A stretch of DNA of 64,000 bases from contig CP182352.1 of the NCBI GenBank assembly GCA_048571215.1, positions 2,688,001 through 2,752,000 on the forward strand. Reading direction: 5' to 3'. Below are positions 14,754-58,553 of this stretch, in pieces. Source of the DNA: Halarcobacter sp. (GTDB taxonomy: Bacteria > Campylobacterota > Campylobacteria > Campylobacterales > Arcobacteraceae). The first letter of the stretch is position 1, and the number at the start of each line of letters is the position of its first letter. Below the pieces are notes generated by a model, which saw only the letters and a program-made list of their open reading frames with translations, did no database searches and was not told the DNA's origin. Position numbers and translations under genes: made by a program.

Positions 14754-16043
14754 CTATTTATTAATTATAATTAATGATTTTAAAATACCAATTGCAGTAT
14801 TTAATTGATTATCTTTTGCAATATCCTCTGCTTCTATAACTTTTTTATCTTTTACTTCAATCTTTTTCTTTTTCACTCCATTGTCTTTTTCAAGTTCAAC
14901 CTTTAAGTGTTTTTTTAAGTCAGCTTCTTTTATCTTAAACACATTATCATCTGCTGTTACACTTTCACCTGGATAAGCAATAACATCAGGAGTTATTCCT
15001 GTAGCTTGGATTGTTCTTCCACTTGGAAGATAATACTTTGCAATAGTTAATTTAATATTTTCACTTCTATCTTGGGTTATAGGAAGTACTGCTTGTACTG
15101 AACCCTTACCAAAAGTTTTTTCACCAACTATAATTGCTCTTTTATGGTCTTGTAATGCCCCACTTACAATCTCAGAAGCTGAAGCAGAACCACCATTTAC
15201 TAATACAACCATTGGTACTTTTGAGATTGTAGTTGTTGTTTTTGCATCAAACTTTTCTTCATCAGCAGCATCTCTTCCCTTTTGAGAAACAATCACTCCA
15301 CTATCAACAAAAAGATCAACGGTTCCAATTGCTTGTGTTAATAATCCACCTGGATTATTTCTTAAGTCTAAAATTATTCCATCAATTTTAGGATTGTCTT
15401 TTAATGCTTTTCTTAAGTCTCTTGTAACTTTTCTATCAAAACTTGAAACTCTTAAATAAAGTAAGTTTTCATTTTCTATAATTTTTGCAAAAACCGAATC
15501 GATTTTGATTATATCTCTAATAATATCTATTTTAATAGGTTTATTTTCCCCTTTTCTTACAACTGTAAGTTCAATTGGAGTTTTAGGTTTACCTCTCATC
15601 AAAGATACTGCCTCATCAAGTGTCATATTTAATGTTGATACATTATCAATTTTTAAGATTATATCACCCGCTTTCATACCCGCTTTAAATGCAGGAGTAC
15701 CATCAATTGGTGATATAACAGTGATAGCACCATCTCTCATACCAACAGTGATTCCAAGTCCACCAAATTCACCTTGAGTTTGTATACTCATCTCTTTTGT
15801 TGATTTTTTATCTAAGTAAGTTGAATGGGCATCAAGCTCTTGCATTAAACCCTTTAATGCTTTGTCTACTATTTGTTCTAAGTCGATATCATCAACATAA
15901 TATTTTTCTACTGTACCAATAACCTGAGTTAACTTTGACAAAGATTCAAATCTACTTAGGTTTTTATCTTTTTCAGTCTCTTTTGCTGTAATTGATTGTG
16001 ATAGAAATAAAACTAAAGTTGAAATTAGTAAAAATTTATTCAT
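14754..16043 (-). CDS. ctpA: S41 carboxyl-terminal protease
   Basis: PDZ GGLGI, DLRNNPGG, SASASEIVSGALQD, TFGKGSVQ. Confidence 0.93.
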   Translation of the reverse strand: MNKFLLISTLVLFLSQSITAKETEKDKNLSRFESLSKLTQVIGTVEKYYVDDIDLEQIVDKALKGLMQELDAHSTYLDKKSTKEMSIQTQGEFGGLGITVGMRDGAITVISPIDGTPAFKAGMKAGDIILKIDNVSTLNMTLDEAVSLMRGKPKTPIELTVVRKGENKPIKIDIIRDIIKIDSVFAKIIENENLLYLRVSSFDRKVTRDLRKALKDNPKIDGIILDLRNNPGGLLTQAIGTVDLFVDSGVIVSQKGRDAADEEKFDAKTTTTISKVPMVVLVNGGSASASEIVSGALQDHKRAIIVGEKTFGKGSVQAVLPITQDRSENIKLTIAKYYLPSGRTIQATGITPDVIAYPGESVTADDNVFKIKEADLKKHLKVELEKDNGVKKKKIEVKDKKVIEAEDIAKDNQLNTAIGILKSLIIINK

Positions 16044-55933: not shown

Positions 55934-56150
55934 TTTATTCCTTTAGTATTATATTTTATTATTAATTATATAAAAATAATACTTAATACTCTACAACTAC
56001 GCTATCATGAATATAAAGGTAATCCATCAGAAATAAGTTGTAATTACTTTTTATAAAACTCTTAGAATTTTATCTCATAAAGATTCTACTAACAGAATAT
56101 GTATTAAAAAAATGTAATTTGAGTAAATTGTCTCTGAGATTTATAGATAG

Positions 56151-56750
56151 TTTTAATTGCATGCAATTGTCTTGTAGAACAAAGTTCTCCGCTTTCTTTA
56201 CTTTTAGTGGTAAAAGTAAAACAAAAGCCACCAGACGCATTGTTGAAGGCAAAGCTACCTTCCACTTTTTATTTTTTTACTGCGTTGCGGGACTCGCTAA
56301 AAGAGTGAGTTAGTCACTCTTTTTTTACGCTCAAACATGTCCTCACTTTTCACCGTAAAAAAAGAAAAAGTTCCAGCTTCAACAAAGTCTGGACTAAAAT
56401 TCCCTAGCTTTGAACTTTCAAAATATATATTGAGTATCACACCAACAAAAACAAAATGGTATAAAAAAATGCAAATGTCCTTATCCCACTTTCCCGCATT
56501 TGAGAAGCCGAGTGTTTATTTATCCTTTTTGAAAACAAGTGACTAAACTGTTTGAAGCGTAAAAAAATGTGCTGGGAGCACATTTTAGCAAGTTTTTAGG
56601 CACTCAAAAGGGATAAGTAATAAGCGAGGGAACCTTCGGCTTCGAAACCTGCGAGATGGTTTCTTTGCTACTTTCTTTTTCACAAAAGAAAGTCGAGAAA
56701 GCCAAGACGTACAGTAAAAGTTTAACTACACTCAAATATATTGATAATAG
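56151..56750. repeat. ~600-bp structured non-coding unit, copy 1 (candidate large ncRNA or MITE-like element)
   Basis: Direct repeat of 56751-57345; many nested stems; GC-richer than flanks by eye; only short shadow ORFs. Confidence 0.85.
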
Positions 56751-57345
56751 TTTTAATTGTATGCAATTGTCTTGAAGAACAAAGTTCTCCGCTTTCTTTA
56801 CTTTTAGTGGTAAAAGTAAAACAAAAGCCACCAGACGGTTGTTAAAGCTAAAGTTCCCTCCAGCTTTCTAATTATTTCCTGACCTGCGGGACTTGATATA
56901 AAACGTGACGTTCAGTCACCTTTTATATCTTCGAACAAGTCCTCGGTCTTTTCCGAAAATAATTAGAAAACTTCCGGCTTCAACAAAGTCTGGACTAAAA
57001 TACTCTAGCTTTGAACTTTTTCATACTATTTGAGTATTACACCAATTCAAATAAAATGGTACTAAAAAATGTAAAGGTCCTTATCCCCACCTTCCCGCAT
57101 TTGAGAAGCCGAGTGTTTATTTTGCTTTTCGGAAAAGTTTTTCAACTGTTAGAGCGTAAAGAAACGTAACTAACTTACGTTTTAGCGAGTTTTGAAAAAC
57201 AGAAAAGTGAAATAATAAGCGAGGGAACCTTCGGCTTCGAAACCTGTGGGATGATTTTTTTGCTACTTTTTTTTTCACAAAAAAAAGTCGAGAAAGCCAA
57301 GACGTACAGTAAAAGTTTATTTATACTCAAATATTTTGATAATAG
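56751..57345. repeat. ~595-bp structured non-coding unit, copy 2
   Basis: Blocks identical to copy 1 alternate with diverged stems that keep pairing; ATAGT at all three junctions. Confidence 0.85.
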
Positions 57346-57594
57346 TATTGATATAACACAACATAATATATTTATCATTTTGTTAAACTATCAAGATTTT
57401 CACCCAGTAGTCATACAAAATGATAAGATATTACGGATATACGTTAATAATCTAACATATAAAAGTACATATTTATTTACATTATTTTATATTTTATTGA
57501 ATTTTAACTATTTAAGGCTTATTTGAGTTAATATCTTTACATTTTTAATGTTAAGATATTAGATGTTTTTATACATTATTTATATATAATGTAT

Positions 57595-57614
57595 TACTAA
57601 TAAGTAGTTATGAC
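57595..57614 (+). other. attI-like recombination site / cassette start
   Basis: TACTAAT-AAGTA-GTTATGAC: L box, 5-bp spacer and GTT core as in attI1 (CCCTAAA-ACAAA-GTT); TATAAT at 57585-57590. Confidence 0.5.
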
Positions 57615-58547
57615 AACAGACAAAAAAGGTAAATAAAGTGTTCAAATATAAATATAATAAACTTTTTCAGCCAACAATAGATGCATTGCAGCAGTTAGGT
57701 GGTTCAGGATCAATAAGTGAAATTGAGGAAAAAGTTATTGAAATTTTAAATTTAACTGATGATGAAATCAATGATATTCATAAGGGGAATACAACAAAAC
57801 TGACATATCGATTAGCTTGGGCTAGAACGTATTTGAAAAAATATGGATTGATTGAAAATTCATCAAGGGGCATTTGGGCTTTAACTGAAAAAGGATTAAA
57901 AGGTCAAAATATTGATGATGAAGAAATTAGAAAATTTGTTGTTAATGAAACCAAAAATAATGACGATAAAGACATGCCTGATGAAGAAGAAAATATAACT
58001 ATTAACAATGAAATTTCAAAATTATCATGGAAGGAAGAATTACTTAATGTTGTCAAACAGATGGAACCACAAGCTTTTGAAAGATTATGTCAAAGATTGC
58101 TAAGAGAACTTGGTTTTATAAATGTAGAAGTTACTCAATATAGTAATGATGGTGGGATTGATGGGAAAGGTGTAATTAGACTTGGAGGTGTTATGTCATT
58201 CCATGTAGTGTTTCAAGCAAAAAGATATAAAGACAGTGTTAGTGCTCCTGTAGTTAGAGATTTTCGTGGAGCAATGATTGGCAGAGCAGATAAAGGACTT
58301 ATTATTACGACGGGAACTTTTACCAGAGAAGCAAAAAAAGAAGCCCAAAGAGATGGTGCACCACCGATTGATTTAATTGATGGCAATGATTTTGCAGAAA
58401 AATTAAAAGATTTAAAATTAGGTATAAATATTGAATTTGTTGAGACGGTACATATCAAAAAAGAGTGGTTTGACAATTTTTAAGTCATAACAAATCAGAG
58501 GAGCCAATAAATTACCCTGCGGGCAATTCATCGGCTCATTTTAAACG
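57608..58547 (+). mobile_element. Integron gene cassette (Mrr ORF + attC)
   Basis: Starts G/TTATGAC, the exact reverse complement of GTCATAAC right after the stop codon; ends at G/TT of attC. Confidence 0.8.
57638..58483 (+). CDS. mrr: Mrr-family type IV restriction endonuclease
   Basis: Mrr_N winged helix (RLAWARTYLKKYGLIE..RGIW) and catalytic AFERL..DGGIDG..QAKRY. Confidence 0.9.
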   Translation: MFKYKYNKLFQPTIDALQQLGGSGSISEIEEKVIEILNLTDDEINDIHKGNTTKLTYRLAWARTYLKKYGLIENSSRGIWALTEKGLKGQNIDDEEIRKFVVNETKNNDDKDMPDEEENITINNEISKLSWKEELLNVVKQMEPQAFERLCQRLLRELGFINVEVTQYSNDGGIDGKGVIRLGGVMSFHVVFQAKRYKDSVSAPVVRDFRGAMIGRADKGLIITTGTFTREAKKEAQRDGAPPIDLIDGNDFAEKLKDLKLGINIEFVETVHIKKEWFDNF

Positions 58548-58553
58548 TTATTC
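58484..58553 (+). other. attC site (~70 bp)
   Basis: GTCATAAC...GTTATTC ends; central 17-bp stem 58501-58537 with 14 Watson-Crick pairs and 3 A/C mismatches that become G.T on the bottom strand. Confidence 0.8.

What the first reader, a model, noticed from the sequence alone, without database searches (positions are those of the whole stretch)
56151..57345. Tandem ~600-nt ornate non-coding elements with whole stems rewritten yet still paired
Seen: two head-to-tail units with long identical blocks (e.g. AGAACAAAGTTCTCCGCTTTCTTTACTTTTAGTGGTAAAAGTAAAACAAAAGCCACCAGAC; TAATAAGCGAGGGAACCTTCGGCTTCGAAACCTG) alternating with stems whose sequence differs but whose pairing is kept. Examples, copy 1 vs copy 2: TTTTTTTAC/GTAAAAAAA vs TTTCTAATTATTT/AAATAATTAGAAA; AAAAGAGTGA/TCACTCTTTT vs ATATAAAA.GTGAC/GTCAC.TTTTATAT; TATCCTTTTTGA/TCAAAAGGGATA vs TTGCTTTTC/GAAAAGTGA; AAAATGTGCT/AGCACATTTT vs AAACGTAA/TTACGTTT. 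The unit ends also pair (GTCTTG..GCTTTCT / AGAAAGC.CAAGAC), and a crossing long-range helix exists (TATTTGAGTAT 57027 / ATACTCAAATA 57323). Inference: strong selection on single-stranded structure, meaning either a large structured ncRNA in the size class of OLE/ROOL/GOLLD that I cannot assign to any family, or a non-autonomous mobile element acting as folded ssDNA/RNA. This is the best candidate for an undescribed system here.
Basis: partly seen in the sequence, partly recalled or inferred. Interest (0 to 1): 0.9.

Follow-up and report, generated by a model that had tools for sequence, protein, structure and literature searches.

The report
Folded selfish repeat carrying integron sites
The two 600-base units are copies of a widespread, self-folding bacterial repeat, probably one already listed in a 2019 survey, rather than one giant new RNA; in this lineage the repeat is joined to gene-capture (integron) sites scattered around the chromosome.

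Summary
The tandem units and compensatory stems are real. Each unit is not one 600-nt RNA but two homologous ~215-nt modules set tail-to-tail around an 80-nt spacer. The genome holds 71 module matches at 35 loci. Covariation is strong (tree-aware: 168 compensatory branches against a null mean of 12). Relatives occur in Arcobacteraceae, Thermodesulfobacteriota, Beta-/Gammaproteobacteria and Bacteroidota. There is no Rfam match, but fold outline, taxonomy and variable context fit ffRNA-1 (Stav 2019, supplement), called a probable selfish element; I could not compare sequences directly. The proposed crossing helix shows no compensatory change. Not found in my searches: all 7 intact IS110 copies sit inside the repeat, and 14 of 18 integron attI-like sites follow a module (random mean 1.0). 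In the window the repeat precedes an attI, an mrr cassette and its attC. Best reading: a non-autonomous folded repeat, more likely acting as ssDNA, moved by an unidentified enzyme and spreading integrase-less cassette-capture sites. Transcription is untested. Earlier scan notes describe look-alike doublets in other bacteria, probably this family.

The parts
56147..56746 (+). Unit copy 1: head, module A, spacer, inverted module B, tail
56747..57346 (+). Unit copy 2, including the closing ATAGT core
56187..56402 (+). Module A of copy 1 (~215 nt: outer hairpin P2, then long rod P1 with conserved internal loops). Strand is the model's orientation; the purine-looped fold is on the opposite strand
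   Evidence: R1 162.9 bits (L001 941-1156)
56483..56703 (-). Module B of copy 1, inverted homologue of A
   Evidence: R1 145.3 bits
56787..57003 (+). Module A of copy 2
   Evidence: R1 152.9 bits; opposite strand folds as P1+P2, z -6.7
57084..57298 (-). Module B of copy 2
   Evidence: R1 170.3 bits; + strand folds as P1+P2, z -5.1
56403..56482 (.). Spacer of copy 1
   Evidence: between the modules
57004..57083 (.). Spacer of copy 2; holds a 9-of-12 sigma70-like match at 57030-57057, at chance level
   Evidence: 8 sites found, 7.7 expected
57299..57341 (+). Tail seen in this lineage's units (copy 1: 56704-56746)
56747..56751 (+). ATAGT junction core, also at 56147-56151 and 57342-57346; a short direct repeat bounding each unit
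57347..57610 (+). Integrase-less promoter/attI module; attI-like site 57583-57610, predicted crossover G|TT at 57607
   Evidence: homology to the native intI-attI spacer is indirect for this copy, through the module at genome position 1720.3-1720.5 kb
57638..58483 (+). mrr gene (Mrr_N + Mrr_cat), an integron cassette
   Evidence: the cassette's start core is matched by the exact inverse core 2 nt after the stop
58484..58553 (+). attC site of the mrr cassette
   Evidence: inverse core, hairpin and closing GTT

Best explanation
The element is a non-autonomous selfish repeat, most likely of the ffRNA-1 family. Its working unit is a ~215-nt fold: a long rod with fixed internal loops around an invariant AACTC / TCAAACA core, plus a terminal hairpin. 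Shown: the fold is under selection; modules pair tail-to-tail; copies are numerous, mosaic and at different sites in relatives; IS110s use them as landing pads; in this clade they sit upstream of attI sites that carry real cassettes. Inferred: the fold is recognised as single-stranded nucleic acid, more likely DNA than RNA (about 60:40), by an enzyme acting in trans that I could not identify. The 600-nt unit, bounded by a 5-nt direct core, is copied or exchanged as a block, which gives tandem arrays. After fusing to an intI-less promoter/attI module it seeded more than a dozen satellite cassette-capture sites, loaded in trans by the single intact IntI.
For: Copy number: 71 module matches, 54 near full length, at 35 loci. 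Covariation: 89% of cells paired, 41 of 49 pairs with two-sided change, 0 of 500 shuffles, slid controls at most 56%; 168 compensatory branches against null mean 12.3, max 38 in 2000 permutations. Mobility: present at the carA 3' site in 3 of the 23 other same-genus genomes whose downstream DNA was read, absent in 20 (one further locus was printed on the wrong strand and left out). 42-63 matches per genome in three Thermodesulfobacteriota MAGs, many 85-95% identical. No gene association: 214 flanking proteins fall into 187 clusters, largest 3; no transposase, integrase or RT among 85 flanking proteins sent to Pfam, of 98 non-Arcobacteraceae ones. DNA-like signs: G-T and A-C each only 2-3% of paired cells on either strand; 3-nt loops closed by C-G (their stability in DNA is recalled). 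All 7 intact IS110 ORFs lie inside modules, at two fixed positions. attI link: 14 of 18 sites, random intergenic mean 1.0, max 6 in 3000 draws; exact inverse cores within 26 nt of the stop in 9 of the 17 ORF-bearing sites; 6 of 9 attI-like sites in G002 and G017 also follow a module.
Against: No mobilising enzyme was found. Y1/RAYT is present in 13 of the 19 other genomes with 10 or more matches (42 of 100 overall) but missing from 6; IntI is present in 8 of 19; G006 and G126 lack both. Only 1 of 30 Y1 loci and 0 of 30 intI loci carry a module. The Y2 search was blank, but so were its controls. No excision, circle or target-site duplication was shown. One strand is favoured: the purine-looped strand folds better in 65 of 68 (RNA parameters) and 50 of 68 (DNA parameters), which also fits an RNA. 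Some sites are old and shared across genera. The attI link is clade-limited: of 30 attI loci sampled across the family only 1 had a module, so integrase-less attI sites also arise without the repeat, and the link could reflect one fusion spread by other means.
Confidence: 0.58

Rival explanations
1. Each module is a trans-acting structured RNA, transcribed outward from the spacer (the 'free-floating RNA' reading).
For: Strand asymmetry of folding; A-C excess on the model strand in the inner rod, 95 against 43 G-T, meaning G-U on the other strand; purine-rich internal loops and tandem G-A motifs on that strand (read); 33 of 36 multi-module clusters are tail-to-tail.
Against: Wobble pairs are rare overall and the bias reverses in the outer stems, 43 G-T against 16 A-C; the spacer promoter match is at chance level; distribution and sites are patchy.
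Confidence: 0.2
2. A once-mobile repeat now kept as a 3'-UTR element that affects termination or mRNA decay, as proposed for REP/ERIC-type repeats.
For: The P2 end faces a gene 3' end in 77 of 123 scored cases, 18 of 20 in the Gammaproteobacteria sample; some sites are shared across genera.
Against: 46 of 123 face a gene 5' end, as does copy 1 in the window; near-identical expansions point to recent spread; no terminator-like site at the P2 hairpins.
Confidence: 0.1
3. The covariation is a mutational by-product (template-switch correction of quasi-palindromes plus gene conversion), with no selection on the fold.
For: Changes are almost all Watson-Crick to Watson-Crick; copies are mosaics, which inflates event counts.
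Against: Asymmetric loops and the core are kept, not corrected to a perfect palindrome, in copies from 26% to 64% GC across several phyla.
Confidence: 0.07
4. The whole 600-nt unit is one large ornate RNA like OLE, ROOL or GOLLD.
For: Whole-unit folding z -7.0; the unit ends are complementary.
Against: The two halves are homologues on opposite strands; 82 of 118 clusters held one module (some loci are short); the crossing helix lacks compensatory change; spacers vary from about 70 to 260 nt between taxa.
Confidence: 0.04

Closest known systems
ffRNA-1 motif (Stav et al. 2019, PMC6429828, supplementary text and Table S1d)
   Same: Found from a 760-nt Arcobacter intergenic region; 4460 sequences, often several per species; Beta-, Gamma-, Delta- and Epsilonproteobacteria and Bacteroidetes; no gene association; long P1 with conserved internal loops plus a P2; judged most likely part of a selfish element. 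Each point matches this module.
   Different: In the passages I saw there is no mention of inverted pairs, tandem units, IS110 targeting or integron sites. The consensus figure (S6e) and the source record could not be read, so identity is not proven.
ffRNA-2 and MRSC-65-2 (PMC6429828 supplement; PMC11109978)
   Same: Multi-copy long stems with covariation and variable context, suspected selfish; the second is noted as possibly acting as DNA.
   Different: ffRNA-2 lacks P2 and its taxon list omits Betaproteobacteria. MRSC-65-2 is a single stem with a repeated UYCCGG; its alignment could not be read.
REP/REPIN with RAYT; ERIC-type MITEs (review PMC3184786; REPIN details recalled)
   Same: Intergenic, folded, non-coding, multi-copy, serving as IS targets; inverted doublets recall REPINs.
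   Different: Module is much longer than a REP with complex loops; no RAYT tracks it; no target-site duplication seen.
MITE-associated integrons (IMU 288 bp, NFM2-MITE 439 bp; PMC3184786 passages)
   Same: A non-autonomous structured repeat next to an integron platform with a defective integrase.
   Different: There two identical MITEs flank one integron with a 5-bp duplication. Here the repeat sits on one side, in place of intI, at many chromosomal sites.

Membership tests
ffRNA-1 | Match to the published consensus or source region NC_017192.1/411394-412153 | not testable with these tools
   Figure S6 holds only its legend; accession not in the collections
ffRNA-1 | Long P1 with conserved internal loops plus P2 | tested here: met
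ffRNA-1 | Present in Beta-, Gamma-, Delta-, Epsilonproteobacteria and Bacteroidetes | tested here: met
   Variovorax and Ralstonia; 23 of 151 genomes in the class of a Pseudomonadales MAG; 16 of 151 in the phylum of a Capnocytophaga genome (some weak hits lack the core); Thermodesulfobacteriota MAGs; Arcobacteraceae
ffRNA-1 | Several copies per genome, no common neighbouring gene | tested here: met
ffRNA-2 | No P2 stem | tested here: not met
   P2 is present and covaries (helix 1)
Any Rfam 15 family (incl. OLE, ROOL, GOLLD, Flavo-1) | Score at the gathering threshold | tested here: not met
   No hit in the region; best weak hits 23 bits of 50 and Flavo-1 21 of 42
Large ornate RNA | Covarying long-range helices across one ~600-nt molecule | tested here: not met
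Large ornate RNA | Abundant discrete transcript | tested here: inconclusive
   Only one low-depth contig set from relatives
REPIN/RAYT | Cognate RAYT flanked by the repeat and co-occurring with it | tested here: not met
   1 of 30 Y1 loci adjacent; absent from 6 of 19 high-copy genomes
Classical MITE | Terminal inverted repeats with target-site duplication | tested here: inconclusive
   Paired units have degenerate inverted outer ends and a 5-nt direct core, but no empty/filled pair at base resolution was found
Integron attI with gene cassette (downstream module) | attI like the native site, GTT core, ORF, matching inverse core and attC | tested here: met
   intact IntI elsewhere in the genome, TIGR02249 398 bits
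Integron attI with gene cassette (downstream module) | IntI-dependent recombination | not testable with these tools
   needs a bench assay

The most novel reading that the evidence does not exclude
The module is the recognition structure of an unknown trans-acting ssDNA (or RNA) mobilisation machinery shared across at least four bacterial phyla. In this clade the 600-nt unit excises and re-integrates at its ATAGT core while carrying an attI/promoter, and so acts as a vehicle that turns one integron into a chromosome-wide network of cassette-capture sites.
Probability: 0.25. Interest if true: 0.85.

Novelty: new variant of a known kind. Interest (0 to 1): 0.55.

Why it matters
A cross-phylum folded repeat with no known enzyme is an open question: how do such repeats move, and is the working fold DNA or RNA? 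This genome makes it testable, with many recent mosaic copies, defined junctions and two IS110s that target fixed sites in the repeat. The link to about 14 integrase-less attI sites suggests a way for one integrase to capture and express many cassettes from first position at once; some cassettes look defence-like (Mrr by Pfam; others judged only from their sequence).

Tried and rejected
Rfam at gathering and E-value thresholds: nothing real. BLAST of the window unit against plasmids and phages: no match; the Variovorax module also had no phage match. The four viral pattern hits were chance matches without a module; 59 of the 118 genome-scan loci had no HMM hit, and 7 of those were later recovered as GC-rich members. 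IS91/ISCR origin idea: no Y2 transposase found, control also blank, so open but unsupported. RAYT and IntI as the mover: do not track the repeat. Replichore bias: none, 39 against 32. RNAalifold on the sequence-only alignment recovered just 11 outer pairs, so the structure was set from mutual information and inspection; my first pair count had one helix off by one and was redone. RNA evidence: one metatranscriptome with 0.07 of the words; 8 contig pieces from relatives, no conclusion. A broader covariance model was too slow to calibrate, so a sequence-only model was used. The phylum search found only 3 of 100 other Campylobacterota genomes, two of them weak. Paper searches for the repeat and for repeat-linked or dispersed attI sites gave only the papers cited; most subscription papers are not searched.

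Full report
Setting. The window is G000:C1:2688001-2752000 of a complete 3.6-Mb genome. Named homologous loci are mostly Arcobacteraceae. An earlier scan note calls the organism a Halarcobacter; I did not check that.

Observation. The two units start at 56147 and 56747. There is no Rfam match at threshold.

Anatomy. BLAST found 63 matches in the genome, with partial copies breaking at recurring positions. An HMM seeded on the window showed that each unit is two homologous ~215-nt modules in inverted, tail-to-tail orientation. Their window positions are 56187-56402, 56483-56703, 56787-57003 and 57084-57298. The genome has 71 module matches at 35 loci. Read outward from the spacer, a module folds as a long rod with purine-rich internal loops (P1) followed by a hairpin (P2). 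In this lineage units carry a ~45-nt tail and are bounded by a short direct core, ATAGT or a close variant. Units are mosaics: 71-92% identical overall, with a different nearest neighbour for each segment.

Covariation. I aligned 68 of the 69 non-redundant modules chosen from 164 (one with an insertion was left out). Of the 40 top mutual-information pairs, 21 are at least 70% Watson-Crick, against 6% of all pairs. For the 49-pair structure, 89% of cells pair and 41 pairs change on both sides; no shuffle of 500 reaches this and slid controls give at most 56%. The structure was derived from these sequences, which favours it over the slid controls. On a tree, 168 branches change both partners to a Watson-Crick pair, against a null mean of 12.3 and maximum 38; module swapping may inflate this.

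Range. GC-rich members occur in Thermodesulfobacteriota MAGs at 42-63 matches per genome. Variovorax and Ralstonia wenshanensis replicons carry the same tail-to-tail pair just after a stop codon. A sequence-only model hits 23 of 151 and 16 of 151 genomes in two further groups; most of the hits printed hold the core and some weak ones do not (which stopped after 36 of 50 loci). Of 36 multi-module clusters, 33 are tail-to-tail.

Mobility and enzyme. At the carA 3' site the element is present in 3 of 23 other genomes read. Flanking genes share nothing. Neither Y1/RAYT nor IntI tracks the repeat, though Y1 is somewhat enriched, 13 of 19 high-copy genomes against 42 of 100. All 7 intact IS110 ORFs lie inside modules: four identical 327-aa copies between P1 and P2, and three 323-aa copies in the invariant core. 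The mover remains unknown.

DNA or RNA. For RNA: one strand folds better and the inner rod shows wobble bias to that strand. For DNA: wobble is only 2-3% on either strand, the bias reverses in outer stems, loops are often C-G-closed triloops, and no promoter stands out. Transcription could not be tested. I put DNA at about 60%.

Integron link. The genome has one intact intI with attI and cassettes near 895-898 kb. Seventeen further attI-like sites lack an integrase. Of all 18, 14 have a module within 800 nt upstream, against a random mean of 1.0; a fifteenth follows a unit split by IS110. Several keep a homologue of the intI-attI spacer, some with the first intI codons. Nine of the 17 ORF-bearing sites show the exact inverse core at the gene end. 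In the window the order is repeat, promoter/attI, mrr, attC. G002 and G017 show the link at 6 of 9 sites. Across the family integrase-less attI-like sites are common, with the pattern in 48 of 100 other genomes, yet only 1 of 30 sampled had a module. The fusion is therefore clade-specific, and whether the repeat drives its spread is inference.

Known families. Stav et al. 2019 (PMC6429828; I saw main-text passages, supplementary text passages, part of Table S1 and three figure legends, but no figures) describe ffRNA-1 from an Arcobacter intergenic region, with the same fold outline, taxonomy, multi-copy state and lack of gene context. I put identity at about 80%; the unreadable Figure S6e bears directly on it. 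Narunsky et al. 2024 (PMC11109978; passages only, supplement unreadable) list 250 mobile/repeat candidates that might include it. Delihas 2011 (PMC3184786; passages) covers ERIC and MITE-flanked integrons. Ten paper searches found no account of the inverted pairs, IS110 targeting or attI link; the library lacks most subscription papers.

Verdict. A real, strongly conserved fold, probably a listed but unstudied selfish repeat rather than a new giant RNA. Its paired architecture, IS110 targeting and clade-specific coupling to dispersed attI sites are the additions. New variant of a known kind; interest 0.55.

Noticed in passing
L258, L260, L261, L268-L270, L272, L274, L277 (just after carA); G000 about 1721250-1721310: A second, ~130-nt structured repeat occupies the carA 3' site in about 9 relatives and is fused to a truncated module in G000. 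It resembles ERIC as I recall it and may be ffRNA-2; neither was tested.
   Followed up: no
G000, most of the 30 hits (e.g. 958271, 1715052, 548532, 810141): A ~30-nt motif with core GAATCTCCACTTT caps the 5' end of at least 11 B-only copies, occurs elsewhere on its own, and truncates a RAYT-like 5' fragment at 548408-548532. It may mark a separate small mobile system.
   Followed up: partly
G000 copies near 958.1, 963.6, 971.1, 1464.6, 1472.3, 1711.7, 1804.0, 2523.3 kb: Short 21-35-nt inserts recur at fixed places inside the stems; one also appears upstream of an attI in another genome (L318).
   Followed up: no
G000 896495-896690 and about 898385-898570: The native integron holds two copies of a gene-less, ~190-nt, highly structured cassette.
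   Followed up: no
L303-L332: Integrase-less attI-like sites, often with only the first codons of intI, are common in Arcobacteraceae, including genomes with no intI.
   Followed up: partly
window 15055-15365: Rfam Rp_sR47 scores just over threshold (61.1 of 60) with many broken pairs; probably spurious.
   Followed up: no
G000 2560378-2560911 (L050): The single RAYT-like gene stops at 177 aa while the frame seems to continue; the homologue in L212 is 221 aa. It may be truncated.
   Followed up: no
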